Source: an uncultured virus (IMG/VR IMGVR_UViG_3300015607_004939) (lineage: Duplodnaviria; Heunggongvirae; Uroviricota; Caudoviricetes). From it: a stretch of DNA of 64,000 bases. The notes under the pieces are model-generated. The model did no database searches. It was not told where the DNA came from and worked only from the letters and a program-made list of their open reading frames with translations. The DNA lies in the IMG/VR virus record IMGVR_UViG_3300015607_004939; one strand, written 5' to 3'. The position numbers were made by a program, and so were the translations under genes. Shown piece after piece: positions 8,502 to 64,000 of the stretch (within the stretch, counting starts at the first letter, position 1; every line of letters starts with the position of its first letter).

Positions 8502-8736
8502 NNNNNNNNNNNNNNNNNNNNNNNNNNNNNNNNNNNNNNNNNNNNNNNNNNNNNNNNNNNNNNNNNNNNNNNNNNNNNNNNNNNNNNNNNNNNNNNNNNN
8601 NNNNNNNNNNNNNNNNNNNNNNNNNNNNNNNNNNNNNNNNNNNNNNNNNNNNNNNNNNNNNNNNNNNNNNNNNNNNNNNNNNNNNNNNNNNNNNNNNNNN
8701 NNNNNNNNNNNNNNNNNNNNNNNNNNNNNNNNNNNN
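8502..8736. other. Assembly gap (235 N)
   Basis: Run of N. Confidence 1.
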
Positions 8737-18000: not shown

Positions 18001-19195
18001 CGGGGCGGGCGTGAACATGCGCTTCAACCCGTACATCCTCGCGGGCTTCCCCGGGATGGTCTTCGACAACCTGTCGGTGGGGATGCACGCCGTGGGGCAC
18101 GTGCAGAGCGTGCAGCACTCCGGGATCGTGCGGGACAAGGGCGCGCGCATGGCCTCGCAGGCGCAGCTCTCCTACTGCCGGACGATCTACGAGTTCATCG
18201 CGGACGTGCGCGCCGATGCCGTGCGCTTCGGAGGGCGCGTCACGTCCGCCCCGGCCGAGCTCATCAGCGAGATTCGCGAGGTGGTGCAGGACGAGGGGCG
18301 CGCCGAGCAGTTCTACAAGAAGCTCCTCTACGGGGGACGGGAGAACCTCGCCGGGGCGTGCTTCCGCTGGACCGAGGCCATGGGCTACTCCGACGGCGGT
18401 CAGGTCATCCCCATCGAGATCGTGGGCGAATCCGTCGCCGTTCAGGAGGAGCGACTCCGGGCGGCCGAGGCGGCGGGGCGCGGCGAGGGCACGGCGTCTG
18501 GATCCGAGCAGGGGCAGCCCTCGCCCGCGACGGCCGCGCAGTCGGCGAGCGCCGGGGGCGTCTCCTCGCAGGGGCAGACCACGGTGCACACGAACCTGGA
18601 CCCCAACAAGGAGCTCTCGCCCAGGCAGAACATCTACTCCGACGCCTTCCGCAGCTACGACGTTGCCATGCGCCTCGCCGCACGCCCCGCCTGCACGCTC
18701 GACGAATACATCCGCTTCTGGCACGGTGGGAAAACCGTCGGACAGATGCAAGCCACGGGACAAGTTGGACCCATCCGCACCGATTATGCGTATCGGACGC
18801 AACTGATTCCTGAAGTAGTTGCAGAGGCCGCGACACCTACCAGTGTCCTGAGGCTGGTGTACGGAGTGACGGAACGACCTACGGCGCAGTTTTACGACTG
18901 GATCTTCAAGCTGGTTCCAGGACCGGGTCGTAACACGCAGAAGGACCGCGACGACGCGGCCGATGACGCACGAGAAGGCAACTCCAATCGTCCACGACGT
19001 GCTCAAACCGAAGAAGATCGCTTGAGGCCGCCGACGGATGAGGAACAGGGGTTCACCCGCCCACCCGCACAGATCCTTCCCACCGCACGATCTCAAGGCG
19101 TGCCGGAGACCTACCCTGACACGAGGGCCGACTGGGACACCGTGTTGGACCTCTACCGCGAGAAGGTCGTGCAGAGAGTGAGCCCGAGCCGATGA
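15080..19195 (+). CDS. Baseplate hub-like protein with internal M23 peptidase domain
   Basis: M23 motifs FHAGSDI, GTPVYAV..GQV, GNMVVVNH, YMH, GDVLGYVG, HCHLEV; hub-like N- and C-terminal parts (MRFNPYILAGFP). Confidence 0.75.
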   Translation: MAIDPTAARPASTPSDNPTYQGAWVCYINGRAVPIYAFDTTSRVWEPPTARIHLLPDVLLMRLGHEDRVPVAFFYLDHWVDPAKPDFRLLFDGEILGWSYSHAKGTRTVSFTVTAHIHIFQQLYFQYMTNIDDVVAARSPELVASSIATTPGPIYPYALYHQGLNQTAAQIEAATPRPGVTVTDVNLDAETPGATLPIQAPYELVYNAVKGCIDATIPNERRSLPMMNFFARHIRKTQFHNRWVRLPIMEDPAVLAGELGVFPIFRAARSVEALNAMQRHVASQVGNAGPVWNVFQQTLGLVYMEIGMVPNPCSVLVQLNDTSGVGNPVDGRIIGHPRYDTPLRDQRTVDAQQGPAPQAPETFRRDPPSPLRRSEEEPLFVPEEPTQRIAVVDNSERVVSTAPVGSGVRFNRVGAGGTEFGVDPLTPIRLAQYFVKPAMHFAEPPACNVIFPSMVDSWTYDENYLAQPTRIYVNDSVMTGLLRADGANREFMLHALTVAYPEEADALLHHKVNAAVGGAGSTAPTESGKNLLLWPEEYYKGPVTAKSALPAWFQFARQFSNAQAATLGAAGSGGPAVGVPPSGLARAESLMGGPAGSVSGGLAFSVARRNSQGQSYFHAGSDISAAIGTPVYAVLPGQVSEVVANFQPSGDKCGNMVVVNHPRSGPNGETVTCIYMHFQRFGEGISEGRRVNPGDVLGYVGVTNGSAPDRDAVIRAFNIPPAKALEAFNAGTQAGAERVLAPFLENRPIPSGTDLSRKPWSYTEREANPDQAARARVPHTPVPQWKILARCVAGLFHQTGGAHCHLEVIFTPPGQRIDRSPPRYVNNVLTPNNRVDAVAWLASIGVALGTNHSRAPGPSRRGRIPPATGAPAPTPDINTANLTASAPASAAPLPSAGVSPQITTVARNIPRIAPNAGAATPGAGGPGAPHTTAHEAPTTTALAPGGTAAEGDSFASLFRLYAQQEYLRQRYAQRGAGVNMRFNPYILAGFPGMVFDNLSVGMHAVGHVQSVQHSGIVRDKGARMASQAQLSYCRTIYEFIADVRADAVRFGGRVTSAPAELISEIREVVQDEGRAEQFYKKLLYGGRENLAGACFRWTEAMGYSDGGQVIPIEIVGESVAVQEERLRAAEAAGRGEGTASGSEQGQPSPATAAQSASAGGVSSQGQTTVHTNLDPNKELSPRQNIYSDAFRSYDVAMRLAARPACTLDEYIRFWHGGKTVGQMQATGQVGPIRTDYAYRTQLIPEVVAEAATPTSVLRLVYGVTERPTAQFYDWIFKLVPGPGRNTQKDRDDAADDAREGNSNRPRRAQTEEDRLRPPTDEEQGFTRPPAQILPTARSQGVPETYPDTRADWDTVLDLYREKVVQRVSPSR

Positions 19196-19896
19196 ACGAG
19201 ATCAAGAGCCAGGACCTCCTGCTGTGGGAGAAGTGGAAGAAGAGCCGCTCGCCCACGGACCTCGAAGCCCTCATGCGTCATGTGGCGCCGCTCCTTCGCA
19301 GCGAGGTAAACCGCTGGAGCCGCATCGCGCCGGAGTTCCTCTTGGAGAACGAGGCCAAGCGCCTCGCGATCAAGGCGTTCGAGGACTACAACCCCAACCA
19401 TGTGCCCCCCACGGCCCTCGGGACGCACGTGAAGAACCACCTCCTGAAGCTCTCCCGTACGGCGTACAGCCGCCAGTCCACGCTGACCGTGCCGGAGGCC
19501 AAGCGTCTCACCTTCAATCAGGTCCAGCGCCAGCGCACGCTCCTGGAGGACCAGACGGGCAGACCCCCGACGTTGGAGGAGCTCGCCGACCACATGCGCC
19601 TCTCGCCCGCGCGACTGCACGCGTTGCAGAACGAGGTGAGCAAGCGCGAGTACATGGAGTCCGGCGAGGGCCCCTCGTTCGTTCAGCACACCGACGACCC
19701 GGAGGTCGTGCACCTCGCGTGGCACGACATGACGCCCGTTCAGCGGCAGATCTTCGAGATGCGCACGGGTTACAACGGCGCCAAGATCCTGCCCGGCGCC
19801 AAGATCATGCAGGAGACCGGCCTCACGCAGGGCCAGCTCTCCCACCAGATCGGCAAGATCCGCGACACCCTCGTGCGCGCCCAGAACCTACGCTAA
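19192..19896 (+). CDS. Sigma-70 family factor (group 3, FliA/SigB-like)
   Basis: KAFEDYNP region 2, GRPPTLEELADHMRLS region 3, C-terminal region 4 HTH. Confidence 0.8.
   Translation: MNEIKSQDLLLWEKWKKSRSPTDLEALMRHVAPLLRSEVNRWSRIAPEFLLENEAKRLAIKAFEDYNPNHVPPTALGTHVKNHLLKLSRTAYSRQSTLTVPEAKRLTFNQVQRQRTLLEDQTGRPPTLEELADHMRLSPARLHALQNEVSKREYMESGEGPSFVQHTDDPEVVHLAWHDMTPVQRQIFEMRTGYNGAKILPGAKIMQETGLTQGQLSHQIGKIRDTLVRAQNLR
19889..19894 (+). promoter_or_regulatory. -10 element TACGCT, leaderless
   Basis: 6 nt before GTG 19901. Confidence 0.5.
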
Positions 19897-36032: not shown

Positions 36033-36034
36033 CC

Positions 36035-49511: not shown

Positions 49512-49577
49512 GTTTGGTGTTGCTCCTTAGGGGAGTCCGCACGACGCGGAAGGGAGAAGAGTGTATATCTCAGCCAT

Positions 49578-50345: not shown

Positions 50346-50348
50346 GGG

Positions 50349-51455: not shown

Positions 51456-51690
51456 GATCGACTCCTTCCCGCTCCGCGCAGGACAGTTGGTTCAGCTCGC
51501 CGCGCAGAATCCGGCGGACCTCGCGCGCGAACTGGATGGGGGACACGGACTTCAGGGGCACCGCTTCGAGCGGGCCCCCGACCACGAGGTGCCGGAAAGC
51601 CTCGTAGAACTCCTTGGCCACGAGCGCCTCGCTCTGGGGCGCCACGTAGAGATCCAAAAACAACGAAACGACGATGGCCCTGAACTTCAC
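51346..51690 (-). CDS. Hypothetical protein
   Basis: GTG 51690 coupled (GTGA) to upstream stop; overlaps parB start. Confidence 0.4.
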   Translation of the reverse strand: MKFRAIVVSLFLDLYVAPQSEALVAKEFYEAFRHLVVGGPLEAVPLKSVSPIQFAREVRRILRGELNQLSCAEREGVDHDDRRYDREEGQEEGRDGGDAVQAGQEVRRVRVRRV

Positions 51691-51914
51691 CGGGTCGGCG
51701 AAGAGGTGCTGCTCCCTGGCGGCGCCTCGAAAGGCGCGGTCCCGCAGTTCGCGCAGCGAACCGATGAGCACTGAGACGTCGGCGGAAGGATCGGACCTCG
51801 ACACCTTGGGCATGTCGGCGGTTCTGCCACGCCCTCCGTACGCCGTAAAGCGGACGAAGCGGAGGCTTCTACCCGCTTGTCCTCGATATTCGTGACGACG
51901 CCGTACTTCTCCAC
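51687..51914 (-). CDS. Small zinc-ribbon protein
   Basis: MEKYGV...CPRC...CANCGTAPFE; starts 1 nt after upstream stop, RBS GGAG. Confidence 0.6.
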   Translation of the reverse strand: MEKYGVVTNIEDKRVEASASSALRRTEGVAEPPTCPRCRGPILPPTSQCSSVRCANCGTAPFEAPPGSSTSSPTR

Positions 51915-51915
51915 G

Positions 51916-52446
51916 TCACTCTCCCGTCAGGTACTTGTCGAGGAAGCTCTTCTCCTCGGACGCTGCCGTGCCCGCCTCGCCCCGCCGGGCGGCCTCGGCC
52001 TCGGCGTAGCCGGGGTCGACGCGGCCGAACTCCCGCTCGACCAGACCCGTGCGGGTGCCGATCTCGCGGATGGCGACCTGACGGGGCTTCTCCAGGTCGG
52101 AGATCTCGATCGGATCGGTCAAGGGGTTCCCGCGCGCGTTCCCGCTCGACCACTTGGTGACGATGGCGCGCCCCGTGGGGCGGTCGGCGGGCGCCGGGGG
52201 CGCGGGAGGGGCCGGCGCGGGGGCCGGGGCGAAGGCCGTCGCAGACGGCGCCGGGGCGGGGGGCGCGGACGGGGCGGGAGGGGGCGGGGCAGGCCGCGCC
52301 GCCGGCCTCGGGTCGTCCACCCAGAGGTAGATCGTGCAGTTGTCGGGGACCTCGAAGTCCAGCAATACGCCGTACCCCCTCTGCTGGAGGTCCTGCTGGA
52401 TCAGGGCCTTGACGTCCTCGGGACCGTACTGAACTTGCAGCTTCAT
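51916..52446 (-). CDS. Hypothetical protein with Pro/Ala linker
   Basis: Coupled to SNF2 stop. Confidence 0.65.
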   Translation of the reverse strand: MKLQVQYGPEDVKALIQQDLQQRGYGVLLDFEVPDNCTIYLWVDDPRPAARPAPPPPAPSAPPAPAPSATAFAPAPAPAPPAPPAPADRPTGRAIVTKWSSGNARGNPLTDPIEISDLEKPRQVAIREIGTRTGLVEREFGRVDPGYAEAEAARRGEAGTAASEEKSFLDKYLTGE

Positions 52447-54446
52447 AGCAGGCTCGGCTTTGCTACGGGGCGGTTCACTGCCGCCGCGTAGGTGCAGTTC
52501 TCCCGGAAGGGGACCGTGCCGTCAAGGGCGCACGCTTCCATGCGCGGGCAGGAGGCGCATCGGATCTTCTCGGTCATCGTGAAGGCGACCCGGTCCTTGA
52601 ACCGGAGCACGCCGGCCACCATCCGGTCGAGCCCCCCGAGCCCCTCGGCGGTCAGGAGCCGGTAGCAGGTCATCTTGCGCTTCTGGCCGGGCCGGTTGTT
52701 CCTCTCGATGGCCTGCTGGTAGTCGAGCGGTGCCCACGGCAGCGAGTAGAACACCGAGTAGTTGGCGGCGGGCAGGTTGATGCCGATCCCGGCGCTCACC
52801 ATCCCGACGAGCACGCGCGTCTTGGGGTCCTCTTGCACCGCGAGCTCGATCCGCTCGACGTCCTTGGTCGTGTCCCCGTCCAGGCGCTCGACCTTGACCC
52901 CGAGCTCGGCGCACACGCCCATCATGTCGTCCAGCTCGTCGTCGAAGACCCCCCAGCACAGGACCTTGTTGGTGTCGTCCTCCTCCAGGATCTGTTCGAG
53001 GAGGTCCTTGAACACCTCCCGCTTGGGGTTCTCGAAGTCGCGCAGGACCTTGCGCGGGGGCTTCTGCTGCACGACGAGGCACTTCTTGGTGTAGGGCTTG
53101 ATCCGCTCCTCCACGCACACCTCCATGCGCGGGCAGGCGTCGCAGATGGTCCGGTCGGGCGCCTCGATGAGGAAGCCGGAGATCACCTGGAGGAGCTTGT
53201 TCACCAGGGCGGCCCCGTGGGGCAGGTTGAAGAGGACCTGCGCCGGGGGCGGCGCGAGGCCCGGCTCGGGGTTGTCGTCGAAGTGCGCGGCGTACGCCTC
53301 CAGCGCGGGGTCGAGCGTAGCCTGCATGGTTGATACGAGCTCGTTGTAGCGGTGCTTCTGCCGGGTCCCGAGCTCGAAGGGCACGTCCACCACGGTCATG
53401 GCCGGCAGGTCCAGGCAGTCCTTCTTCTTCATCCGCAGCGCAACCGAGTCGACGATCGCGTTCATCTCGTTCAGGTTCTTGTAGCCCGTGCGGATCACGG
53501 CGTTGTACGGGGAGCGCGTGACGTACTTGTCGACGAACTTCTCGTAGTCCATCGGGACGAGGGCGGGCGAGAGGAAGTAGAGCTGTCCGTAGAGCTTCTC
53601 GGGCGTGTCGCCCGGCGTGCCGGTTAGCGCGATGCGGCGCGGCGCGGGCACCGACAGGGCCACCACGGCCTGCGTCTGTTCGCTCTTCCAGTTGCCCAGG
53701 CGGTGCGACTCGTCGGCCACGATCACGTCGTAGCCGAGCTCCAGGAGGCGGCTCCGCTCGGGGGCGAAGATCGCCATCTTGCCGAACTGCGGGTGCTCGA
53801 TCTCGGTGTTCGCCATGAGGCGCGCGCGGGCGTAGCTCACCCCCACGACCTGGGCCGACTTGGCGGCCTCCCAGGACTCCTCGGTCCCGTCGAAGTAGAC
53901 GCCCTTCCACTCCCCGCGCGACACGCGCCCCGTCTCGCGCGCCCAGCCGGGGAGCACGACCGGGGGCCCGACGACGAGGGCCTTCTTGAAGGGGGCCTCG
54001 CGGGCGATCACGCGGAGGGCGTCGAGCGTCGTGCGCGTCTTGCCCGTGCCCATGTCCCACAGGAGGAACGTCCGGGCCCAGTGCCGGATGCGCGATACGC
54101 CGTACCGCTGGTACTTGAAAGGCTGGAAGGTGTCGGGGAAGAACTCGCCCGGCACGTCCGCGAGGCACGGCTCCCCCCTCGCCCAGGCGGCCTCCTCCGA
54201 TTCCCAGGCGCGGTCCTTAGCCTCGATATCGGCCGCAAGCGCCAGGGCGTCCGGCGTCCAGCGCGCGCCCACGGCCAGCTTGCGCAGGTCCCGCATTGCC
54301 CACAGGCCGAATGGGTAGTACCCGGGGAAGATCCAGGTGCCGCTGACGTACTGGGCGCCCCACGCGCGGGCGAGCGGGGACTTCTCGGGGCCGGGCGACG
54401 CGAACGCGCGTGCCGTATTGTTGAGCGTGAACGACCTGATCTCCAT
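52443..54446 (-). CDS. SNF2-family helicase/ATPase
   Basis: YQ..G, DMGTGKT, VADESH, LTGTP, GIGINL, QAIERNNRPGQ; RBS GGAGGAG. Confidence 0.92.
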   Translation of the reverse strand: MEIRSFTLNNTARAFASPGPEKSPLARAWGAQYVSGTWIFPGYYPFGLWAMRDLRKLAVGARWTPDALALAADIEAKDRAWESEEAAWARGEPCLADVPGEFFPDTFQPFKYQRYGVSRIRHWARTFLLWDMGTGKTRTTLDALRVIAREAPFKKALVVGPPVVLPGWARETGRVSRGEWKGVYFDGTEESWEAAKSAQVVGVSYARARLMANTEIEHPQFGKMAIFAPERSRLLELGYDVIVADESHRLGNWKSEQTQAVVALSVPAPRRIALTGTPGDTPEKLYGQLYFLSPALVPMDYEKFVDKYVTRSPYNAVIRTGYKNLNEMNAIVDSVALRMKKKDCLDLPAMTVVDVPFELGTRQKHRYNELVSTMQATLDPALEAYAAHFDDNPEPGLAPPPAQVLFNLPHGAALVNKLLQVISGFLIEAPDRTICDACPRMEVCVEERIKPYTKKCLVVQQKPPRKVLRDFENPKREVFKDLLEQILEEDDTNKVLCWGVFDDELDDMMGVCAELGVKVERLDGDTTKDVERIELAVQEDPKTRVLVGMVSAGIGINLPAANYSVFYSLPWAPLDYQQAIERNNRPGQKRKMTCYRLLTAEGLGGLDRMVAGVLRFKDRVAFTMTEKIRCASCPRMEACALDGTVPFRENCTYAAAVNRPVAKPSLL

Positions 54447-54466
54447 GGGCTCCTCCGAAGGGTGAC

Positions 54467-56185
54467 ATGTACGAACTAGACGCGATGGGGCCGTACCAGA
54501 ACGGCGGCGGCGCCTACGGGCACCCGAACCCCCAGTACGACTACCTGAGCGGGTTCACGCCCAGGAAGCTCAAGGACCTGATCCGGCAAGCCGAGTACAT
54601 CGGCTTCAACTCGGCGCACATCTACGGCGTCGTCCGCAAGTTCGGCGAGTACCCCATCACGGAGCTGGAGTACGAGACGGCCTCGGACTCCGAGCGCGAG
54701 CGGCACGAGAAGCTCTTCGACAACGAGCTGCGCTTCAAGGGGTTCCTCACGCTGGTCTCCTTCGATGTGTGGCTCACGGGCAACAGCTTCGTGAGCATGT
54801 ACGAGCCGATCAAGCGGGACCTGCGGTGTCCGTCCTGCAAGATCCCCGAGGACGTCGCGGCGGCGGACTACACCTTCCACCTGGACCGCCTGGAGTTCCG
54901 GTTCAACTGCCGCAACTGCGGTCTGCGCAACCAGATCGCCGAGGTCGTCGACCAGCCACTGCGCGAGCCGAGCCGCATCAAGCTCCGACGCTGGGACCCG
55001 AAGCTCATCGACATCGACTCGAACCTCATCACCGGGGAGGACGAGTACTACTACACGATCCCGCGCGCCTTCGTCGCCGAGGTTCGCGCGGGCAACAAGC
55101 TGAAGATCAACCACACGCCGATGGAGTTCCTCGCGGCGATGAGGGACCGGAAGATCTTCAAGTTCGCCCCCGACGCCATCTACCACATGCGTATGCCGGG
55201 CCCGGCCGGGGAGCAGGGCCAGTGGGGCTTCCCTCCCATCACGGCGGCCATCAAGCTCTTCCTCTTCGCGGCCGTGCTCAGGCGCGCCAACGAGGCGATC
55301 GCCATGGAGCACATCACGCCCTTCCGCGTGATGCACCCCACGCAAGCGAGCAGCCAGGGCGACCCGCTCACGACCATCAACCTCGGGCGCTGGCGGCAGG
55401 AGCTGGAAGGGAACCTCCGCGCCTTCCGCAAGGACCCCCTGCGCGTCATGTTCTCCCCGATCCCCATCGGCGTGCAGAACATCGGCGGCGAGGGACGCAC
55501 CCTCCTGACGCTCGGCGAGCTGGAGCAGGCCGAGAAGAACATCGTCTTCTCGCTCGGCGTCCCGATGGAGTTCCTCACCGGGGGCCTCGGGCAGACGCGC
55601 GGCGACGTGACGCTCCGCATGATCGAGAACCAGCTCCGTACCCACATCGAGAACCTGAACGGGCTCGCGCAGTGGACCGAGCGGCGCGCGGCGGGGTTCC
55701 TCAAGTGGGCCTCGATCCCCGTGCGCCTCCAAGACTTCAAGATGACGGACGACGTGGACGCCAAGCAGTTCCGTCTCCAGATGTGGACGCAAGGGAGGGT
55801 GAGCGACACGACGATGGCGCAGTCGCTCAACATGGACCTCAAGAACGAGATGAAGCTCATCAAGCAGGAGCAGCTCGACCGCCAGCGCAACGAGAGCGAG
55901 ACCCAGCTCGCCCTCCAGCGCCAACAGCAGGCCCTGTCGCTCACCTCGCAGCAGCGCGCCATGCAGGCGCAGGGCGGCGTGGCCTACGACCCGCAGCAGG
56001 TGCTGGCCGCCAACGCCCCCATCGCCCAGGAGCTCGGCGAGATGGACGAGGGCACCCGCCGGAGCCGCCTCGACGCCTTGCAGGGCGAGGACCCGGTCGC
56101 GTACGCTGTTGTCAAGATGCTCCTCGAACAGAAGCAACAGAACGACACGGCGCAGGCCAAGCAGCAGTCGCGAGGGGGTGGGTGA
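54467..56185 (+). CDS. Portal protein with zinc-ribbon insertion
   Basis: FDVWLTGNSF, IYHMR...WGFPPI, IVFSLGVP.EFL.G portal-type motifs; CPSC...CRNC insert; Gln-rich tail. Confidence 0.7.
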   Translation: MYELDAMGPYQNGGGAYGHPNPQYDYLSGFTPRKLKDLIRQAEYIGFNSAHIYGVVRKFGEYPITELEYETASDSERERHEKLFDNELRFKGFLTLVSFDVWLTGNSFVSMYEPIKRDLRCPSCKIPEDVAAADYTFHLDRLEFRFNCRNCGLRNQIAEVVDQPLREPSRIKLRRWDPKLIDIDSNLITGEDEYYYTIPRAFVAEVRAGNKLKINHTPMEFLAAMRDRKIFKFAPDAIYHMRMPGPAGEQGQWGFPPITAAIKLFLFAAVLRRANEAIAMEHITPFRVMHPTQASSQGDPLTTINLGRWRQELEGNLRAFRKDPLRVMFSPIPIGVQNIGGEGRTLLTLGELEQAEKNIVFSLGVPMEFLTGGLGQTRGDVTLRMIENQLRTHIENLNGLAQWTERRAAGFLKWASIPVRLQDFKMTDDVDAKQFRLQMWTQGRVSDTTMAQSLNMDLKNEMKLIKQEQLDRQRNESETQLALQRQQQALSLTSQQRAMQAQGGVAYDPQQVLAANAPIAQELGEMDEGTRRSRLDALQGEDPVAYAVVKMLLEQKQQNDTAQAKQQSRGGG

Positions 56186-56544
56186 TGGCCGACCCGTGGG
56201 CAGAGCACGAGGGCTTCCGGGGCCCCAACGTCAACACCGTCAAGCCCGGCCGGGTGCACTACGACACGTTCGTCGTCTTCCGCCCCTACTACCTGTGCCC
56301 CGCCTGCAAGAAGGTGATGGCGCAGGACGACTTCCAGTACCCCGAGGACGACGACTACGTCTGTCCGCACGTCCGCCGGAGCGCGCTGGAGAAGATCATG
56401 GACAAGGTGATCGCCGGCACCGCGCAGAAGTTCTCGATGGACCAGCTCGTCATGGAGAGCGGCGTCGTCCAGGTCACGCTCGTCTGGGCGGACGTCGATC
56501 GGCCAAAGGAGGAAGGAGGGTGGTCGAGGCCCAGCCACATGTGA
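56185..56544 (+). CDS. Hypothetical protein (CxxC...CxH)
   Basis: TGATG coupling to portal. Confidence 0.65.
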   Translation: MADPWAEHEGFRGPNVNTVKPGRVHYDTFVVFRPYYLCPACKKVMAQDDFQYPEDDDYVCPHVRRSALEKIMDKVIAGTAQKFSMDQLVMESGVVQVTLVWADVDRPKEEGGWSRPSHM

Positions 56545-56648
56545 TGGCTGGGCCCCGGTCACCGGTTGGTGTCGTCGTCAGAGGATGACGACGATGACGA
56601 ACTTGAGCACGCTGGTCAGTACCATGCGCACCTCCTTCCGCATCCTTG

Positions 56649-56654
56649 TACCCT
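56649..56654 (+). promoter_or_regulatory. -10 element TACCCT upstream of RNAP gene
   Basis: 14 nt before ATG 56669. Confidence 0.45.
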
Positions 56655-56668
56655 AACGAGAGCCCATT

Positions 56669-59600
56669 ATGAGCGAGCCGACGCCCATCCTCACCGACGC
56701 CTCCCACATCCGCGAGCGGATTCGGGAGAAAGCGATCCAGACCGCGTACGCCGTATTCCCCCTGGAGGCCCAGGGGCGGAAGCTGGAGATCGAGGATGTC
56801 CACGTCCGCAACGAGCGTTACAGCCCGGTGCGAGAGGCGCGCGCGCTCATGACCGACGGGACGCTGTCCGAGGCGATGCGCGGGACGCTCGTTCTGCGCG
56901 ACAAGGACGGCACGGTGCTCGACCGGGCCAAGAACTTCACCATCGCGCACCTGCCGTACTTCACCGACCGCCACACGGTGATCGCGAACGGCAACGAGTA
57001 CCAGATCGCGAACCAGCTCCGCAGGAAGCCCGGGGTCTACACGGCGCGCGCGGACAACGGGGAGCTCCGGGCCATCTTCAACCTGGGCCGTGGGAAGAAC
57101 TTCGACCTCGGGTTCGAGCCCAACAAGGGCACCTTCCACCTCGCCTACGGCACGAGCAACATCCCGCTTTACCCAGTGCTGCGGGCGCTGGGCGTCTCAC
57201 ACCAGACGATCGCCGACCAGTGGGGAAAGGGTGTCGCGGACGCGAACCACACCGCCCACGGCCATCAGACCGAGAAGGCCGTGGCGAGTCTCTACGCCAA
57301 GGTCGAGCACCCGGTGGTGATGAACCCGAACCTGCCGCACGCCGAGAAGGTGACGGCGCTCCAGAGGAAGTACGACCAATCGACGCTCGACCCGCGCGTG
57401 ACCGAGGCGACGCTCGGGGTGGCCTGGGATAAGGTGACGCCGCAGGCGCTCATCGGTGCGGCCAAGAAGGTGCTGGCCGTCCACAACGACAAGGCGCAGG
57501 TCGACGACACCGACTCGCTCACCTTCAAGACTTTCCACTCGATCGACGACTTCATCGCCGAGCGCATGCGCCTGACGGCCCGCGCGTGGGTCCCCGCCGC
57601 CAAGCGCGCCTTGAACGGCAAGACCAACATCCGCGAAGCCCTGCGCCCGGCGCCCTTTTCGGACGGGCTGCGCAAGTGGGTCACGACCTCGTCGCTCTCG
57701 GCCGTGCCAACGGGCATCAACCCGCTGGAGATGCTCGACCACGCCGTCAAGGTGACCTCGCTCGGCGAGGGCGGGATCCCCAGCGATCGCGCGATCCCGC
57801 TGGACGCGCGCATGATCCACAACACACACATCGGCGCGCTCGACCCGATTCGCACGCCGGAGTCGAACCATTCCGGGGTCGACATCCGGGCGACCCTGGC
57901 CGCGCACCGCGACAAGGAGGGCAACCTCTACACCGTCGTCAAGAACGTCAAGACCGGCAAGGAGGAGTTCCTCCGGTCGGGCGAGCTGCGCAAGCACGTC
58001 CTGGCCTTCCCCGGCGAGGACCTGCGCGGGCACGTGGACGCCTTCGTCGGCGGCAAGGTCGAGCGGGTGCCCGGTGATAAGGTCACCCACCAGCTCCTGC
58101 ACACCGCCCACACCTACTCGCCCGCGACGACGCTGATCCCCATGATCCACTCGATCCAAGGCAACCGCGCCATCATGGGGTCCAAGATGGGCACCCAGGC
58201 GCTGCCGCTGCTGGAGCGCGAGGCGCCGTACGTCCAGGTCCGCTCGCACCTGCCGGGCGGAGAGAGCTTCGAGACCGTCTACGGCCACATGTTCGTGCCG
58301 CGCGCGACGGTGAGCGGGACGGTGAAGAAGATCGAGGACGGCTGGATCTACATCAAGCCGGACAAGGAGCACGAGAAGAAGTCCGAAGTTCGCCGTGAGG
58401 ATGACGACGTCGACGCGGACGGGGTGAAGGTCGCCGCCGAGGACGACGGGCTCGTCAAGGTGCCCTACCAGACGCTCTTCCCGTTCCCCTCCAAGACCTA
58501 CCTGCACCACGAGCTCTCGGTGAAGCCGGGCGACAAGGTGCAGGAGGGTCAGCGCCTGGGCGAGTCGAACTACACCCGCAAAGGCACCCTCGCCCTCGGC
58601 AAGAATCTGCTCGTGGCCTACATGCCGTACTACGGCCTGAACTCCAACGACGCCGTCGTGATCTCGGAGGGTTGCGCGAAGAAGCTGACCTCTGAGCACA
58701 TGTACCGCGAGGTCTACGCGCTGAACCCGCAGATCGAGCTCTCGCGCGAGAAGCACCGGATGTACTTCGGCAACAAGTACACCCGCGAGCAGTACGGCGT
58801 ACTCGACGAGACGGGCGTCGTGAAGAAGGGCTCGCGAGTCCACCCGAAGGACCTCCTGGTCGCCGGGCTCACCAAGACCCAGGTGCTGGGCACGGACGCG
58901 CTCCTCGGGCGCATCTCCAAGAGCCTCGCCAAGCCCTACCAGGAGGTGACGCTCTCCTGGACCCACGGCACCCCGGGCGAGGTCGTGGACGTGGTGCGCA
59001 CGGCCACGCAGATCGCCATCCTCGTGCGCACCCACGAGCAGATGCAGGTCGGCGACAAGCTCTGCTACGACGAGCAGACGGAGGTTCTAACCGACCACGG
59101 GTGGAAGCACTTCGACTTGCTGGACCCCTTGACGGATCGTGTGGCGAGCCTTGAAGGCGGGGCCCTCCGTTACGTGGAACCCGAAGCGTACCATCGGTAC
59201 GCGCGCGGGGGTCGCATGTACGCCGTCTCGTCGCAACAGCTCGACCTGTTCGTAACGGACCACCACGGGATGTACGTTCAGCGGCGCGGCGAGACCGAGT
59301 TCGCCTTGCGGCCGGCGGAAGACATCGCCGGCCAGCGGGTTCGATACAAGAAGGACGCGGACTGGCAGGGCGAGACGCCCGACCACGTGGTCTTCCCTTC
59401 GCTCACCGTCGCCGCAGGGCAGGGGGGGCGTGGGTCTCGCGTGCTGACCCCGCTGCGCATGCGAACGGACGCCTACGCCATGCTGCTGGGCGCGTACCTG
59501 TCGGAGGGGAACCTCGTCGATCAACCCGAGAGCGGCAGCTACGGGATCGACATCACGCAGATCAAGGAGCCCAACCGGGCGCGACTGCTCACGGAGCTCC

Positions 59601-62245
59601 GCCGCCTGGGGCTCAAGTTCAACGAGCACGGGCGCGGAACGAAGGTACGCCTCTACTCGAAGCAGATCCTGGAACACTTCCGCCAGTTCGGGCACAGCCA
59701 CGAGAAGTTCATCCCCCCGTACGTTTTCGATTGGGACCGGAACACGCTGCGGATCCTTTTCGACTGGCTGGTGTGGGGAGACGGGAGCGTGGCCAACGGC
59801 CGTCCCGTCTCGTACACGACGACGTCACCGCGTCTCGCCGACGACGTACAGCGGCTGTGCCTTCACGTCGGATTCGCGGGCAACGTGAAGCGGAAGAAGC
59901 ACCACCCGCGTCAAACGATCAAGGGCGAAGAGTACGATTGCCGCCCATGCTTCGACGTCCGAATCGTGACGACCAAGCTGCATCCCCAGGTCAACCACGG
60001 ACACGCAACGTCGCAGAAGGCTCAACGCGAAGGGTTCGTTCCCGATTACGAATCCCCAGTCTTCTGCGTAACGGTACCTTCGGGGGTGATCTACGTCCGG
60101 CGCAACGGAAAGGGGGTGTGGTCCGGCAACTCGGGTCGCTACGGGAACAAGGGCGTCGTCGCCAAGATCCTGCCGGACCACGAGATGGTTCAGGACTCGA
60201 AGGGCCGCCCCATCGACCTCCTGCTCACCTCGGCGGGCGTCGTCTCCCGCATCAACCCCGCGCAGGTCATCGAGACGGCCGTGGGCAAGGTCGTCGAGAA
60301 GACGGGCAAGCCCATCGTCTTCGACAACAACGCGCGCGTCAACGCCGTCGAGTGGGCCAAGGGGCTACTGCGCGAGCACGGCGTCTCGGACAAGGAGCAC
60401 GTCTACGACCCGCTCCAGAAGCGACGCATCGAAGGCCCGGACGGCAAGGGCGTGCTCGTCGGCCGGCAGTTCATCTACAAGCTCTTCAAGTCGACGGACA
60501 CGAACTTCGCCGCCCACGGCGTGGGCCCCTACGACTTGAACCAGCAGCCGCTCAAGACCGGCGGCGACGACTCGGCCAAGGGCCTCGGCAAGATGGAGTT
60601 CGACGCGCTCATCGCCCACAACGCGCGCAACTTCCTGCGCGAGGCGGCGACGGTGAAGGGTCAGAAGAACGACGAGTTCTGGAAGGCCCTCCAGCTCGGC
60701 ATGCCGCTGCCCGCACCGAAGAGCCCCTTCGCGTTCCAGAAGTTCGTCGGGATGCTCGAAGGGGCAGGGCTCCGCGTGGACAAGCGCGGCTCGAAGATGA
60801 AGCTCCTGCCCATGACGGACCGGGACGTCCTCGCCCGGTCGCGCGGGCCCATCGAGAACTCCAAGACCCTCATCGCCAAGAACCTGAAGCCCGAGACCGG
60901 GGGGCTGTTCGACCCGCGCCTGACGGGCGGCCCCCAAGGCACGCTCTACGCGCACATCGACCTGCACGAGCCGATCCCGAGCCCCGTCTTCCAGGAGCCC
61001 GTGCGGCGCCTGCTGGGCCTGACGGGCAAGGAGTTCGACCGGAAGCTCGCCGAGCACGGCGGGCAATGGTTCCACGCCGAGCTCAAGGCCATGGACGTGG
61101 GGGCCAAGATGCGCGCGCTCCAGGGCCAGCTCGCGAAGGCCAAGGGCGCCGAGCTCAACGACGTCGTCAAGCAGATCAAGTACCTGAAGGCCCTCCAGGC
61201 CGAGAAGATGGCACCCCACGAGGCGTACATGATCTCCAAGGTGCCGGTGATCCCGCCCGTGTTCCGCCCGATCGTGACCCAGCCGGGCGACAGCTCGCAG
61301 GTCTCGATCGGGGACGCGAACAAGCTCTACGGGCACCTCATGGACTCCAACGACACCCTGAAGGCGACGGCCCTGGAGAGCGACCGGGGTAAGCACCGCC
61401 AGCAGGTCTTCAACGCCGTGGCCGCGCTCTACGGCACCGAGGACGTGGCGAACGACGAGCTGCGCGGGCAGTCCGTCAAGGGGTTCCTCTCGAACATCGC
61501 CGGAGTGGGCACGCCGAAGGGCGGGTTCTTCCAGCGCAAGCTCATGCGGCGCACGCAGGACGTGTCGGGTCGCGGCACGGCCGTCCCGGACGCCAACCTC
61601 GGCATGGACCACGTCGGCATGCCCGAGCCGATGCTCTGGGGCATGTACGACAAGATGATCGTCGCGCGGCTCGTGCGGCAGGGCTACCCGGCGCTGGAGG
61701 CGCGCGAGCGCGTGACCAAGCGGGACCACGTGGCGCGCGAAGCGATGCTGGCCGAGACGCGCGAGCGCCCGGTGCTCATCAACCGGGCGCCGACGCTCCA
61801 CCGATGGTCGATCGTGGCGGCCTACCCAGTGCCCGTCCAGGGGAAGACCATCCGCGTGAACCCCTTCATCGAGAAGGGCATGAACCTCGACTACGACGGC
61901 GACACCTTGCAGGTCCACGCGCCCATCACGCACGACGCGATCGAGGACGCCCGCAAGATGACCCTGTCGCAGATGCTCCTGGCCGACCAGACGCACTCAC
62001 GCCTCATGGCCTTCCCGCAGCACGAGGCGATCATCGGCTTCACCCACGCCTCCAAGGCCGTGGCCTCGGGCGCGAAGCCCCGCGAGTTCGCCTCGGCCGA
62101 CGAGGCGGTGAAGGCGTGGCGCCGGGGAGAGATCAAGCTGAACGATCCCGTGACGCTCAAAGGGACCAAGACCGCCTCCGAGCAGGACCCAGACACGAAC
62201 CTCACCCGCCTGCTATCCTGGCTGGAGAGCCAACCCGATGGATGA
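56669..62245 (+). CDS. Phage RNA polymerase: beta subunit fused to N-terminal (catalytic) half of beta', with intein
   Basis: Beta motifs NGNEY, GALDPIRTPE, NRAIMGSKM, LALGKNLLVAYMPYYG.N, GDKL/SGRYGNKG; beta' motifs KPE.GGLF, PVIPP.FRP, KGGFFQRKLM, SGR, NRAPTLHR, NLDYDGD. Confidence 0.93.
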   Translation: MSEPTPILTDASHIRERIREKAIQTAYAVFPLEAQGRKLEIEDVHVRNERYSPVREARALMTDGTLSEAMRGTLVLRDKDGTVLDRAKNFTIAHLPYFTDRHTVIANGNEYQIANQLRRKPGVYTARADNGELRAIFNLGRGKNFDLGFEPNKGTFHLAYGTSNIPLYPVLRALGVSHQTIADQWGKGVADANHTAHGHQTEKAVASLYAKVEHPVVMNPNLPHAEKVTALQRKYDQSTLDPRVTEATLGVAWDKVTPQALIGAAKKVLAVHNDKAQVDDTDSLTFKTFHSIDDFIAERMRLTARAWVPAAKRALNGKTNIREALRPAPFSDGLRKWVTTSSLSAVPTGINPLEMLDHAVKVTSLGEGGIPSDRAIPLDARMIHNTHIGALDPIRTPESNHSGVDIRATLAAHRDKEGNLYTVVKNVKTGKEEFLRSGELRKHVLAFPGEDLRGHVDAFVGGKVERVPGDKVTHQLLHTAHTYSPATTLIPMIHSIQGNRAIMGSKMGTQALPLLEREAPYVQVRSHLPGGESFETVYGHMFVPRATVSGTVKKIEDGWIYIKPDKEHEKKSEVRREDDDVDADGVKVAAEDDGLVKVPYQTLFPFPSKTYLHHELSVKPGDKVQEGQRLGESNYTRKGTLALGKNLLVAYMPYYGLNSNDAVVISEGCAKKLTSEHMYREVYALNPQIELSREKHRMYFGNKYTREQYGVLDETGVVKKGSRVHPKDLLVAGLTKTQVLGTDALLGRISKSLAKPYQEVTLSWTHGTPGEVVDVVRTATQIAILVRTHEQMQVGDKLCYDEQTEVLTDHGWKHFDLLDPLTDRVASLEGGALRYVEPEAYHRYARGGRMYAVSSQQLDLFVTDHHGMYVQRRGETEFALRPAEDIAGQRVRYKKDADWQGETPDHVVFPSLTVAAGQGGRGSRVLTPLRMRTDAYAMLLGAYLSEGNLVDQPESGSYGIDITQIKEPNRARLLTELRRLGLKFNEHGRGTKVRLYSKQILEHFRQFGHSHEKFIPPYVFDWDRNTLRILFDWLVWGDGSVANGRPVSYTTTSPRLADDVQRLCLHVGFAGNVKRKKHHPRQTIKGEEYDCRPCFDVRIVTTKLHPQVNHGHATSQKAQREGFVPDYESPVFCVTVPSGVIYVRRNGKGVWSGNSGRYGNKGVVAKILPDHEMVQDSKGRPIDLLLTSAGVVSRINPAQVIETAVGKVVEKTGKPIVFDNNARVNAVEWAKGLLREHGVSDKEHVYDPLQKRRIEGPDGKGVLVGRQFIYKLFKSTDTNFAAHGVGPYDLNQQPLKTGGDDSAKGLGKMEFDALIAHNARNFLREAATVKGQKNDEFWKALQLGMPLPAPKSPFAFQKFVGMLEGAGLRVDKRGSKMKLLPMTDRDVLARSRGPIENSKTLIAKNLKPETGGLFDPRLTGGPQGTLYAHIDLHEPIPSPVFQEPVRRLLGLTGKEFDRKLAEHGGQWFHAELKAMDVGAKMRALQGQLAKAKGAELNDVVKQIKYLKALQAEKMAPHEAYMISKVPVIPPVFRPIVTQPGDSSQVSIGDANKLYGHLMDSNDTLKATALESDRGKHRQQVFNAVAALYGTEDVANDELRGQSVKGFLSNIAGVGTPKGGFFQRKLMRRTQDVSGRGTAVPDANLGMDHVGMPEPMLWGMYDKMIVARLVRQGYPALEARERVTKRDHVAREAMLAETRERPVLINRAPTLHRWSIVAAYPVPVQGKTIRVNPFIEKGMNLDYDGDTLQVHAPITHDAIEDARKMTLSQMLLADQTHSRLMAFPQHEAIIGFTHASKAVASGAKPREFASADEAVKAWRRGEIKLNDPVTLKGTKTASEQDPDTNLTRLLSWLESQPDG
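59063..60130 (+). mobile_element. Intein with LAGLIDADG endonuclease in RNAP beta (356 aa)
   Basis: GDKL|CYDEQTEVLT...WSGN|SGRYGNKG; LLGAYLSEG and LVWGDGS motifs. Confidence 0.93.
62211..62219 (+). promoter_or_regulatory. Extended -10 TGCTATCCT upstream of ferritin-like / beta'-C genes
   Basis: Followed by GGAGAG RBS and ATG 62238. Confidence 0.45.
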
Positions 62246-62720
62246 CTTCCCTGCCGACATCGACGGAATGCTGAAGGCCGCCGAGGACCCGGAGCCGGAG
62301 CCCGACCCCGTGCCGGGCCTCGTGCGCAAGCTCCTCTCCGTCAAGTACGCCGTACTGCTGGCGTACGTGAGCTACGGCGACCAGCTCCGGGGCGCGAACC
62401 GCGACGGGCTCTACGAGCACTTCCAGGAGCACGTGAAGGACGAGCGCCGCTCGATCTACGAGTTGAACCGTCACCTCGCCTCGCGGGGGGAGGTGCACGT
62501 GCCGCACAACGTCACCATCCCCGAGGTCGAGCTCGGGGGCCCGGTGCCGCTCCTCGGCGTGCTCCTCCAGTTCGAGGAGGCCGCCCTCGAAGCGTGGCGC
62601 GAGCTCTTCCGCGCGATCCCGCCGAACAAGAACGTGGGGCTCTCGGGCTTCGCGCAGAACGGCGCGCAAGCCCAGCTCGCCCACGTCGAGGACCTGCGTC
62701 GCTGGGGGGCCCGGTCGTGA
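62238..62720 (+). CDS. Ferritin/bacterioferritin-like four-helix protein (degenerate)
   Basis: LYEHFQEHVKDE..SIYEL, QFEEAALEAWREL, QLAHVEDL. Confidence 0.55.
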   Translation: MDDFPADIDGMLKAAEDPEPEPDPVPGLVRKLLSVKYAVLLAYVSYGDQLRGANRDGLYEHFQEHVKDERRSIYELNRHLASRGEVHVPHNVTIPEVELGGPVPLLGVLLQFEEAALEAWRELFRAIPPNKNVGLSGFAQNGAQAQLAHVEDLRRWGARS

Positions 62721-62935
62721 AGCGTGTCGAGGTGTCCATGGGCCCGATCGTCCGGGGCGACGCGGGGAAGTTCTCCGGCACGCGCCACGCGTTCACGCAG
62801 GCCGAGGAGGTGCTCAAGAAGTACGCGCTCCTGGCGGACAAGGGCAACCCGGCGGACTTCCTCGCCAAGCTCTTCCGCTCGAACCACTTCGGCTACGACG
62901 CGAAGACGAACCCCCTCAACCGGCGATACCCGTGA
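62717..62935 (+). CDS. Small hypothetical protein
   Basis: GTGA coupling on both sides. Confidence 0.6.
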   Translation: MKRVEVSMGPIVRGDAGKFSGTRHAFTQAEEVLKKYALLADKGNPADFLAKLFRSNHFGYDAKTNPLNRRYP

Positions 62936-64000
62936 CAACCACCGTCGGTCACCTCCTCATCAACGCGGCCCTCCCTGACACGCACCAGATCTCGGGGCCC
63001 GTGACCAACAAGTTCCTCCACGACCACGTGGTGGACTTGGCCCGCTCGGACCCGCAGAAGTACGTGCGCACCGTCACGGACCTGAAGCGGCGCGGGGACG
63101 AGATCGCCACGCTCGAAGGGATCTCGGTGGGCCTGGACGACATCCGGCCCGACTACGCCGCGCGCGACGCGATCGTGAAGCCCGCCGTCGCCGCCCTGCG
63201 CAAGGCCACCTCGACGGGCGAGAAGGAGCGGGTCATCACCGAGGCGCAGAGCCGGATGCTGGCGTACACCAAGACCCACCCGGGCTCGATGACGCACATG
63301 GCCCTCTCGGGCGCGCGCGGCAACCCAGCGCAGCTCATGAAGATCGTGGGGACGCCGCTCGCGACTACGCACCCGCGCGAGGGCCTCGTGCCGCGCGTCC
63401 TGGAGCGGTCGTACTCCGAGGGGCTCTCCCCGGCCGACTACTGGCTCACCGGGCCCGAGGTCCGGGCCAACGAGGTCGCGGCACGCATCTCGGTGAGCGA
63501 GCCCGGCGAGATGGCCAAGGTGCTCGTGGCGAACATGATCTCGAACGTGGTGACGACGCACGACTGCGGCACGCACGCGGGCGTGCGCCTATCGCTCTCA
63601 GACACGCACGTGCTCGACCGCTACGCCCAGGACAACAAGGGCGTCCCGCGCAACACCCTGGTGACCCCGAGACTCGTCCAGTCGCTCAAGGCCCAAGGGA
63701 CGACGGACCTCTACGTGCGGTCGCCCATGACGTGCGGGGCGAGCAGAGGCGTCTGCCAGATGTGCCAGGGTCACAACGAGAAGGGTCAGCCCCAGCCCAT
63801 CGGGATGACCGTCGGCGTGCGGGCGGCCCAGGCGATGGCCGAGCCCCTCACCCAGATGGCGCTCTCCAGCCGACACGGAACGCTCACCGTCAAGATGACG
63901 ACCAAGAGCCCAACGGGGCTGAAGGGCGTTCGTCAGTTCCTGGAGATCCCCAAGGCGTTCCGCCACGAGGCGGCCCTGGCGCCGGTCACGGGTCAGGTCA
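62932..64000 (+). CDS. RNA polymerase beta' C-terminal half (runs off window; not in ORF track)
   Basis: Hand translation from GTG 62932: TTVGHLLIN, GISVGLDD, MALSGARGNPAQL, SYSEGLSPADY, HDCGT, VRSPMTC....GVCQMCQG, VGVRAAQAMAEPLTQMALSSRH. Confidence 0.92.
   Translation, partial: MTTTVGHLLINAALPDTHQISGPVTNKFLHDHVVDLARSDPQKYVRTVTDLKRRGDEIATLEGISVGLDDIRPDYAARDAIVKPAVAALRKATSTGEKERVITEAQSRMLAYTKTHPGSMTHMALSGARGNPAQLMKIVGTPLATTHPREGLVPRVLERSYSEGLSPADYWLTGPEVRANEVAARISVSEPGEMAKVLVANMISNVVTTHDCGTHAGVRLSLSDTHVLDRYAQDNKGVPRNTLVTPRLVQSLKAQGTTDLYVRSPMTCGASRGVCQMCQGHNEKGQPQPIGMTVGVRAAQAMAEPLTQMALSSRHGTLTVKMTTKSPTGLKGVRQFLEIPKAFRHEAALAPVTGQV

What the first reader, a model, noticed from the sequence alone, without database searches (positions are those of the whole stretch)
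56669..64000. Phage multisubunit RNA polymerase re-cut as beta::beta'(N) fusion plus separate beta'(C)
Seen: one ORF runs from beta motifs through the beta C-terminus (GKMEFDALIAH...GMLEGAGLRV) directly into beta' at about 60780-60800 and includes the catalytic loop. It stops just before the TTVG motif, which begins a separate gene at 62932 carrying the bridge helix, Zn site and trigger loop. Both double-psi barrels are therefore in one polypeptide. Established: beta-beta' fusions occur in Helicobacter and Wolbachia, beta' is split in cyanobacteria and plastids near this region, and some large phages encode cell-like RNAPs. The combination of fusion and split is unusual. No alpha or omega gene was recognised in the window.
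Basis: partly seen in the sequence, partly recalled or inferred. Interest (0 to 1): 0.75.

Follow-up and report, generated by a model that had tools for sequence, protein, structure and literature searches.

The report
Two-chain fused phage RNA polymerase
An uncultured phage encodes its own slimmed-down bacterial-type RNA polymerase as two chains (all of beta joined to the front of beta-prime, plus the back of beta-prime), a real layout shared with the cultured Salmonella phage Arash and probably packed into the phage head.

Summary
Confirmed. ORF 56669-62245 runs without a break from beta into beta' and holds the catalytic NLDYDGD; beta'C is a separate 599-aa gene.

The layout is a lineage trait. 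It is in 15 of 15 related viral loci and in cultured phage Arash, where gp206 was the most-detected protein of a virion preparation (PMC10585845). Of the 150 closest cluster representatives, 149 carry the beta/beta' junction: 109 are two-chain and 37 single-chain. Trees nest the two-chain forms inside single-chain ones, so the fusion came first and the split later.

No alpha or omega was found in five complete relatives, the beta' zinc finger is deleted, and two phage sigma factors are conserved. A K-x-A motif, strongly enriched in head proteins, marks the enzyme's dispensable loop and tail, which suggests trimming by the maturation protease (inferred).

Ten literature searches found no description of this architecture, but this scan noted it before on at least four other genomes. 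New variant of a known kind.

The parts
56669..62245 (+). beta::beta'N fusion gene, 1858 aa (1502 aa once the intein is spliced out)
   Evidence: same ORF layout in 15 of 15 viral loci and in Arash gp206
56669..60790 (+). beta part (RpoB 48-1341) with catalytic K797 and K1161; lacks most of RpoB 230-415 inserts, 944-1050 and parts of 1130-1194; rifampicin-pocket positions changed (Q513A, D516T, S531T, I572D, R687T equivalents)
   Evidence: hhalign probability 100, E 1e-56; residue map
58355..58444 (+). variable acidic loop in beta (aa 563-592) with K-V-A at aa 587-589; in relatives it carries K-x-A-flanked inserts, some with an inorganic pyrophosphatase domain
   Evidence: the equivalent loop is the only stretch under pLDDT 50 in the model
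59063..60130 (+). LAGLIDADG intein (Cys1 ... Asn, +1 Ser) between GDKL and SGRYGNKG in the beta barrel
   Evidence: PF14528 E 1e-7; same site occupied in L017 (58%) and by a shorter element in L006, empty in the other 13 of 15 loci; intein-less joint 59059 to 60131 in run X1
60788..60799 (+). beta/beta' junction (G-S-K-M), a short turn joining the last strand of beta to the first strand of beta'
   Evidence: gap-free in 15 aligned proteins; hairpin E492-497/E500-505 at pLDDT 88-93 in the model of relative L015
60899..60955 (+). site of the deleted beta' N-terminal zinc-binding domain (RpoC 67-98 has no partner)
   Evidence: short and without two cysteines in 186 of 186 parsed phage-type rows, 2 rows unparsed
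61883..61903 (+). catalytic Mg-binding motif NLDYDGD (RpoC 458-464)
62168..62245 (+). acidic C-terminal tail that starts with K-T-A, after the folded end of beta'N (about RpoC 553)
62238..62720 (+). ferritin-like gene between the halves; not polymerase
   Evidence: PF00210 E 4e-6; at this place in 9 of 15 loci, absent from L003
62717..62935 (+). 72-aa ORF of unknown function just before beta'C
   Evidence: coding signal; homologues in 8 related loci of the 15 other loci screened
62932..64000 (+). beta'C gene (GTG start; RpoC 571 to about 1360; 599 aa in G001) with bridge helix, zinc site C212/C268/C275/C278 and trigger loop with H315; no beta' i6 insert and no long C-terminal tail
54467..56185 (+). 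portal gene (label taken from Arash gp204), start of the head module
   Evidence: 30% identity, E 7e-88
56182..56544 (+). small CxxC...CPH protein between portal and polymerase; role open
   Evidence: present in 13 of 13 IMG/VR loci screened; four ligands invariant in 38 rows
56645..56670 (+). promoter-like element: TACC-N11/12-TAnnnT lies 6-9 nt before the ATG in relatives; the window has TACC in place and a degenerate second box
   Evidence: exact match at this position in 8 of 16 related loci; not enriched genome-wide
19192..19896 (+). phage sigma factor 1, in the baseplate block; orthologue of Arash gp10, which is in the virion preparation
   Evidence: 27% over 223 aa, E 2e-24; 5 of 5 genomes; Table 2 of PMC10585845
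49527..50345 (+). phage sigma factor 2 (start uncertain); similar to Arash gp196, which is not listed in the virion table

Best explanation
The two genes encode the whole core of a phage-owned, bacterial-type DNA-dependent RNA polymerase. Shown by sequence, alignment or tree: after intein splicing the large chain (about 1500 aa) holds beta, the clamp and both catalytic barrels; the 599-aa chain supplies the bridge helix, trigger loop and zinc site; the family ancestor was a single chain of about 2,030-2,100 aa that later split in a surface loop (RpoC 554-570). Inferred: the covalent beta-beta' join helps the core assemble without alpha or omega; the core is made late with the head genes, packed into the prohead with sigma 1, injected, and transcribes early genes without the host enzyme; the same core with sigma 2 probably serves later promoters; K-x-A sites let the head maturation protease trim the loop and tail where these exist. 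Odds: correct identity and two-chain layout 0.97; fusion before split 0.8; virion-packaged 0.75; independent of host alpha 0.65; cleavage at K-x-A 0.5.
For: Catalytic residues are intact. The junction lies in one protein in 149 of the 150 best representatives and in 15 of 15 loci. All 111 two-chain rows plus one single-chain row form a clade inside 76 single-chain rows (FastTree 1.0; SH-aLRT 99 on 43 rows); an AU test rejects single-chain monophyly at p 0.0175. Alpha (PF01000, PF01193) and omega (PF01192) were found in 0 of 5 complete relatives, with controls 14 of 14. The genes lie between portal, maturation protease (phrog_18299, E 4e-7) and major capsid gene (39% to Arash gp226). Arash gp206 has 128 peptides and 3516 spectra (rank 1), gp216 1210 spectra, gp10 467. 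K-x-A occurs 69 times against 24.4 expected in 13 head ORFs, the best of 1456 pair motifs; 43 against 36.7 in replication ORFs and 11 against 11 in tail ORFs. Arash heads give 37 against 18 and D181 47 against 18.6; 10 of 13 polymerase tails of 20 aa or more start with it against a 5.7% background. An AlphaFold model of relative L015 (958 aa) has pLDDT 88.6 and pTM 0.80, and its best Foldseek matches are bacterial beta chains.
Against: No activity, assembly or RNA data exist for this enzyme. The Arash preparation was purified on sucrose only and also lists ribonucleotide reductase, ligase and primase; its authors allow carry-over. Most two-chain proteins have no long tail (13 do among 111 rows) and 144 of 170 parsed beta loops are short; Arash gp206 has neither and no K-x-A excess (10 against 9.8), and the window's own chain has 7 against 10.4. 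So K-x-A is not needed for packaging. The AU group was named after seeing the tree, the root rests on distant bacterial rows, and sampling favours the window's neighbours. One single-chain row (P0170) lies inside the two-chain clade. Use of host alpha is not excluded by absence from the phage, and G001 is only 58% complete and was not scanned for alpha or omega as a whole.
Confidence: 0.68

Rival explanations
1. Same enzyme, but non-virion only: it is made during infection after the host polymerase starts transcription, and its presence in the Arash preparation is carry-over.
For: The Arash table holds many metabolic enzymes and the authors raise this reading. A sigma-70-like TAnnnT box precedes the gene in 8 of 16 related loci, which fits host or phage sigma.
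Against: gp206 has the most peptides and spectra of 116 proteins, and gp196 sigma is absent while gp10 is present. The genes lie in the head module and carry head-type K-x-A sites at their dispensable ends.
Confidence: 0.15
2. The two chains borrow the host's alpha dimer (and perhaps omega) to assemble, so the enzyme is a hybrid.
For: The enzyme stays close to bacterial beta and beta' in sequence and fold, and it keeps the RpoC 515-553 element that, from memory, touches alpha.
Against: Parts of RpoB 1130-1194 are lost and G1215 is proline (their role in alpha binding is recalled). Several single-chain relatives delete the RpoC 515-570 element altogether. phiKZ and AR9 enzymes work without alpha (PMC7598289, passages).
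Confidence: 0.2
3. Independent events on a two-subunit ancestor: a beta' that was already split had its N half fused to beta, and the single-chain forms are later re-fusions.
For: Beta' is split near here in YerA41, RP13, phiKZ/AR9 and cyanobacteria. P0170 suggests that re-fusion can happen.
Against: Single-chain rows are paraphyletic to the two-chain clade. The other splits fall at different places: RP13 just after the RpoC 510-515 motif, YerA41 some 40-60 residues past the TTxGR equivalent, and cyanobacterial gamma runs about 60 residues past the point where this chain ends.
Confidence: 0.12
4. Assembly artefact: a lost stop at the junction or a false break before beta'C.
For: The only runs that span the junction may be the source of the window.
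Against: The junction is gap-free in relatives down to about 35% identity, including a cultured phage with 100% reported peptide coverage of gp206. Whole genes lie between the halves, over 0.6-4.8 kb.
Confidence: 0.01

Closest known systems
Salmonella phage Arash gp206 (1525 aa) + gp216 (606 aa), OQ632216.1; Vibrio phages D181, D148, D69
   Same: Same fusion, same cut, same order (portal, small gene, fusion ... beta'C ... capsid) and both sigma factors; 32-44% identity.
   Different: PMC10585845 (section 16 read in full) calls them beta and beta' and says nothing of a fusion or split there. Arash lacks the intein, the loop and the tail; D181 beta is interrupted by a homing endonuclease gene.
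[quoted passage not shown]
   Same: No alpha or omega; beta' split after the catalytic barrel; AR9 nvRNAP also lacks the beta' zinc domain; virion packaging.
   Different: They have four or five core chains, beta is split and not fused, there are two enzyme sets, and no recognisable sigma. Here there is one set, two chains and two sigma-70-like factors, much closer to bacterial sequences.
mReC phages (Weinheimer and Aylward 2020, PMC7481178; parts 1-2 of 6, passages, partial supplement search)
   Same: Tailed phages with recognisable bacterial-like beta and beta'.
   Different: mReC were selected on NADxDGD and 800-aa matches and have PF07068 capsids. This enzyme has NLDYDGD and a 307-aa capsid with no Pfam hit. 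The paper's only use of 'fused' concerns crAss phages.
Natural bacterial beta-beta' fusions (Helicobacter, Wolbachia: recalled; P0074 and P0082)
   Same: Beta C-terminus joined to beta' N-terminus in one frame.
   Different: They are full-length cellular enzymes with alpha; P0074 and P0082 fall outside the phage clade.
Cyanobacterial and plastid gamma (RpoC1) + beta'' (RpoC2)
   Same: Beta' cut in the same neighbourhood, after the catalytic barrel.
   Different: Gamma continues about 60 residues past the equivalent of this chain's end, and beta is not fused.
Single-chain two-barrel phage polymerases (crAss gp66, YonO, P23-45; bioRxiv 2022.12.01.518664, passages)
   Same: Both barrels in one polypeptide; some are virion-borne.
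   Different: Those are highly diverged and belong to a separate clade in that paper; this enzyme aligns with RpoB/RpoC over nearly its whole length.

Membership tests
Two-barrel multisubunit-type RNA polymerase | DxDGD motif in the beta' barrel | tested here: met
   NLDYDGD, D1741/D1743/D1745
Two-barrel multisubunit-type RNA polymerase | Two conserved lysines in the beta barrel | tested here: met
   K797 and K1161 align with RpoB K1065 and K1073
Two-barrel multisubunit-type RNA polymerase | Bridge helix, trigger-loop histidine, beta' C-terminal zinc site | tested here: met
   H315 aligns with RpoC H936 and four cysteines are kept; R933 is serine
Two-barrel multisubunit-type RNA polymerase | RNA synthesis activity | not testable with these tools
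   needs biochemistry
Canonical bacterial core (alpha2, beta, beta', omega) | Alpha and omega encoded with the enzyme | tested here: not met
   0 of 5 complete relatives, controls 14 of 14; G001 itself not searched whole
Canonical bacterial core (alpha2, beta, beta', omega) | Beta' N-terminal zinc-binding domain | tested here: not met
   absent in 186 of 186 parsed phage-type rows
Arash-type two-chain phage RNA polymerase | Beta::beta'N in one gene ending near RpoC 553, separate beta'C of about 600 aa, placed between portal and capsid genes | tested here: met
Arash-type two-chain phage RNA polymerase | Same clade as Arash gp206 | tested here: met
   one branch of 104 two-chain rows, support 0.988; SH-aLRT 92 on the subsample
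phiKZ/AR9-type RNA polymerase | Beta split into separate genes, two paralogous enzyme sets, no sigma | tested here: not met
   beta is whole and fused; two sigma-like genes in 5 of 5 genomes; tblastn shows one place per record
mReC | NADxDGD motif (the paper's selection filter) | tested here: not met
   NLDYDGD in the window; NAD(F/Y/H)DGD in 26 of 111 two-chain and 42 of 77 single-chain rows
mReC | PF07068 major capsid protein | tested here: inconclusive
   no Pfam hit for the 307-aa capsid; 0 of 5 genomes, but no control rang
mReC | Placement in the mReC clade | not tested
   mReC sequences were not obtained
Class 1 LAGLIDADG intein | Cys1, terminal Asn, +1 Ser/Thr/Cys, conserved host site, empty alleles | tested here: met
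   splicing itself not tested

The most novel reading that the evidence does not exclude
A widespread, uncharacterised family of minimal bacterial-type polymerases (about 2,050-2,100 residues, no alpha, omega or beta' zinc finger) that work as one chain or two, use one core for both virion and late transcription by swapping two phage sigma factors, and are finished inside the prohead by the maturation protease at K-x-A sites. In one single-chain subgroup the loop at the split position carries such sites (7 of 12 long linkers), so protease and gene fission would give the same two-chain enzyme. In some two-chain relatives the cut would also open beta and free a pyrophosphatase passenger domain.
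Probability: 0.3. Interest if true: 0.8.

Novelty: new variant of a known kind. Interest (0 to 1): 0.57.

Why it matters
Cellular polymerases need an alpha dimer to assemble, and the alpha-free phage enzymes solved so far are too diverged to compare residue by residue. This family aligns with RpoB/RpoC almost end to end, yet appears to lack alpha, omega and the beta' zinc finger, and it has a cultured member (Arash) on a laboratory strain. That makes it a direct test of what alpha is for, how sigma binds without the zinc finger, and whether one core can act as both virion and late enzyme. A one- or two-gene, probably rifampicin-insensitive polymerase with its own sigma factors could also be an orthogonal transcription tool. 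The layout itself is common in the clade, so this window is one more member and not a unique case.

Tried and rejected
Complex prediction of the small CxxC...CPH protein with part of the fusion chain (L015 versions; beta N-terminal part and beta'C left out) returned no verdict, so it is not evidence either way.

The small protein's fold stayed unidentified: model pLDDT 78.6, best Z 5.6 among 48,161 chains, no viral match at E 0.001 or better, ESM Atlas top score 0.88. It cannot be called an alpha or omega stand-in.

No RNA holder was listed among sequencing runs. The two runs of a second study covered only small pieces and not the junction.

The sigma-70 consensus scan found 0 sites in 48500-64000. 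The TACC-N11/12-TAnnnT pattern is not enriched genome-wide against its reversed control and has 0 exact matches in G001, so it is kept only as a positional lead.

A regex parse of the zinc domain left about half the rows unparsed and was replaced by an alignment-based count. Two attempts to see the cyanobacterial cut directly gave no gamma or beta'' rows; one search gave ranges only.

In the mReC supplement, 1 of 6 IMG/VR sample ids occurred (4 places, the 2 shown being capsid reference rows); file 1 was not searched.

Rejected readings: frameshift or lost stop; window-specific oddity; phiKZ-type enzyme.
Full report
OBSERVATION. The ORF at 56669-62245 is 1858 aa without a stop, has high third-position GC in frame throughout and lies far from the only N run. 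Pfam places beta domains before beta' domains in this one protein and the later beta' domains in the ORF from 62932. A profile of 15 family proteins aligns with Salmonella RpoB 48-1341 and then RpoC 20-553, with two residues between them, at nt 60788-60799. Beta'C aligns from RpoC 571. The nearest virus record G001 is identical over 56000-64000 and gives beta'C as 599 aa. Contigs from two runs span the junction without differences, but these may be the source samples.

CONTEXT. The window is a tailed phage of about 68% GC with terminase, DNA polymerase, ribonucleotide reductase and helicases. The polymerase genes follow the portal and precede inner-head genes, a maturation protease and the capsid gene. 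Two sigma-like genes are present, at 19192 and near 49527; each has a match in 5 of 5 genomes searched, one of them G001 itself. The host is unknown.

HOW COMMON. tblastn of the last 704 aa matched 48 of 50,697 phage records; four (Arash and Vibrio D181, D148, D69) match in one piece over 96% of the query. All 15 IMG/VR loci have beta C-terminus and beta'N in one ORF, and 14 of 15 show a separate beta'C, the last being cut short; L008 and L016 look like duplicates. Among the 150 best of the 50%-identity representatives, 149 span the junction: 109 end after beta'N (one of them the fragment that lacks the junction), 37 continue into beta'C and 4 are unclear. A search for longer relatives of beta'C listed 120 of 745 hits; 42 are single-chain beta::beta' proteins, two of them bacterial-type. 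I have no genome context for these proteins, so their phage origin is inferred from the tree and the shared zinc-finger loss.

ORDER OF EVENTS. On 663 shared columns and 192 rows, all 111 two-chain rows plus P0170 form one branch (support 1.0) nested in single-chain rows. IQ-TREE on a 43-row subsample agrees (SH-aLRT 99). Forcing the other 21 single-chain rows together is rejected (p-AU 0.0175), though I named that group after seeing the tree and the root is distant. In single chains the cut site is a short hairpin or a longer loop before TTxGR. Other phages cut beta' elsewhere in this region: RP13 earlier and YerA41 later. Cyanobacterial gamma extends about 60 residues further. The region is therefore a hot spot for splits, and this split is probably independent of the others.

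ANATOMY. Catalytic aspartates, lysines, the C-terminal zinc site and the trigger-loop histidine are kept. Lost are the beta' N-terminal zinc finger (186 of 186 parsed rows), large lineage inserts and the beta' tail. PMC7618050 (passages) notes that this zinc domain is general in multisubunit enzymes but missing in AR9 nvRNAP, so the loss has a precedent. Rifampicin-pocket positions are changed, and so are clamp-helix positions R275 and E295 (the roles of these residues are recalled). No alpha or omega profile matched in 5 complete relatives, with 14 of 14 controls ringing. A model of L015 residues 521-1478 is confident (pLDDT 88.6), shows the junction as a hairpin turn and the beta loop as the only disordered stretch; its best structural matches are bacterial beta chains.

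VIRION EVIDENCE. In PMC10585845 (passages, part 2 of 5, section 16 in full; supplements not read) gp206 is the most detected of 116 proteins, with 128 peptides; gp216 and sigma gp10 are listed and sigma gp196 is not. The preparation also holds metabolic enzymes, so this is suggestive only. Independently, K-x-A is the top pair motif of 1456 in the 13 head ORFs of G001 (69 against 24.4), but is not enriched in 9 replication or 12 tail ORFs; Arash and D181 head genes show it too. In the polymerase, 10 of 13 long C-terminal tails start with it against a 5.7% background. Of 26 long beta loops among 170 parsed, 8 are inteins; 16 of the other 18 contain it, mostly at their ends. These rows are related, so the counts are not independent. 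Four relatives tested carry an InPase domain in that loop, one above the Pfam cut-off. Against this, most members have neither tail nor loop and the whole chains show no excess. That K-x-A is the protease site is my inference; one search found no paper on it. The precedent for prohead cleavage motifs and a packaged polymerase is SPN3US (PMC10052503, passages).

MECHANISM. Most likely a two-chain, alpha-free core is made with the head proteins, packed with sigma 1, trimmed where K-x-A loops exist, and injected to start transcription; sigma 2 then redirects the same core. Identity, layout and conservation are shown. Packaging, alpha independence, sigma roles and cleavage are inferred. Rivals are a non-virion enzyme, a hybrid with host alpha, and re-fusion from a split ancestor.

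COMPARISON AND NOVELTY. It works like bacterial RNA polymerase and belongs to the Arash-type clade. It is not phiKZ-type, and it fails the mReC motif filter; tree placement against mReC was not tested. Ten searches of an open-access library found no description of the beta::beta'N plus beta'C layout or of the single-chain family. Subscription papers and unread supplements could hold one, and bioRxiv 2022.12.01.518664 (passages) mentions unnamed derivatives with fused barrels. PMC7824862 and PMC7598289 were seen as passages only. Earlier notes of this scan report the same architecture on at least four other genomes; one of them gave me the single-chain lead, which I then tested.

VERDICT. Real, new variant of a known kind, common within its clade, testable in a cultured phage. 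Interest 0.57.

Noticed in passing
L007:7169-12034, L013:6164-12154, L005:1409-6292, L014:6884-12037 (loop at window aa 563-592): An inorganic pyrophosphatase domain (PF18823; E 7e-31 in L007, below cut-off in the other three) is inserted in beta and flanked by K-x-A motifs.
   Followed up: partly
window about 56578-56625, minus strand: A 15-codon hydrophobic ORF with a strong ribosome-binding site lies opposite the polymerase promoter region; similar ORFs are in L003, L004 and L017.
   Followed up: no
window 56645-56670 and upstream of the fusion gene in L004, L006, L007, L008, L013, L014, L015, L017: TACC-N11/12-TAnnnT lies 6-9 nt before the ATG with no ribosome-binding site, which suggests a leaderless transcript.
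   Followed up: partly
window 56182-56544: A small protein with invariant CxxC...CPH sits between portal and polymerase; Arash and D181 have a cysteine-less small gene at the same place. Fold and partner are unresolved.
   Followed up: partly
L012:7625-13516 and L017:5792-12952: Inteins sit directly after the catalytic DYDGD; other relatives carry inteins after TPES in beta.
   Followed up: no
L003 about 9050-9342: The closest relative (88% over the last 704 aa) changes frame inside the beta loop insert: a real split, a programmed shift or an assembly error. It also lacks the ferritin-like gene.
   Followed up: partly
P0002, P0003, P0005-P0010, P0188, P0196, P0224 and others: A subgroup of single-chain enzymes has deleted the element equivalent to about RpoC 515-570.
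   Followed up: no
window 36029-37054: An unannotated ORF before the terminase has 8 K-x-A motifs against 2.1 expected, so it may be a head protein.
   Followed up: no
window 4373-7288: A helicase with an apparent intein near its N-terminus.
   Followed up: no
window 8502-8736: A run of 235 N (assembly gap) before the 9023 ORF.
   Followed up: no
runs X1 and X2 on window 56000-64000: Several related phages with this polymerase co-occur in the same wastewater samples (many contigs under 95% alike), one lacking the intein.
   Followed up: no
L010:9049-10524 and L011:12025-13500: A 491-aa gene that looks like a primase or ligase-type protein by eye lies between the polymerase halves in place of the ferritin-like gene.
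   Followed up: no
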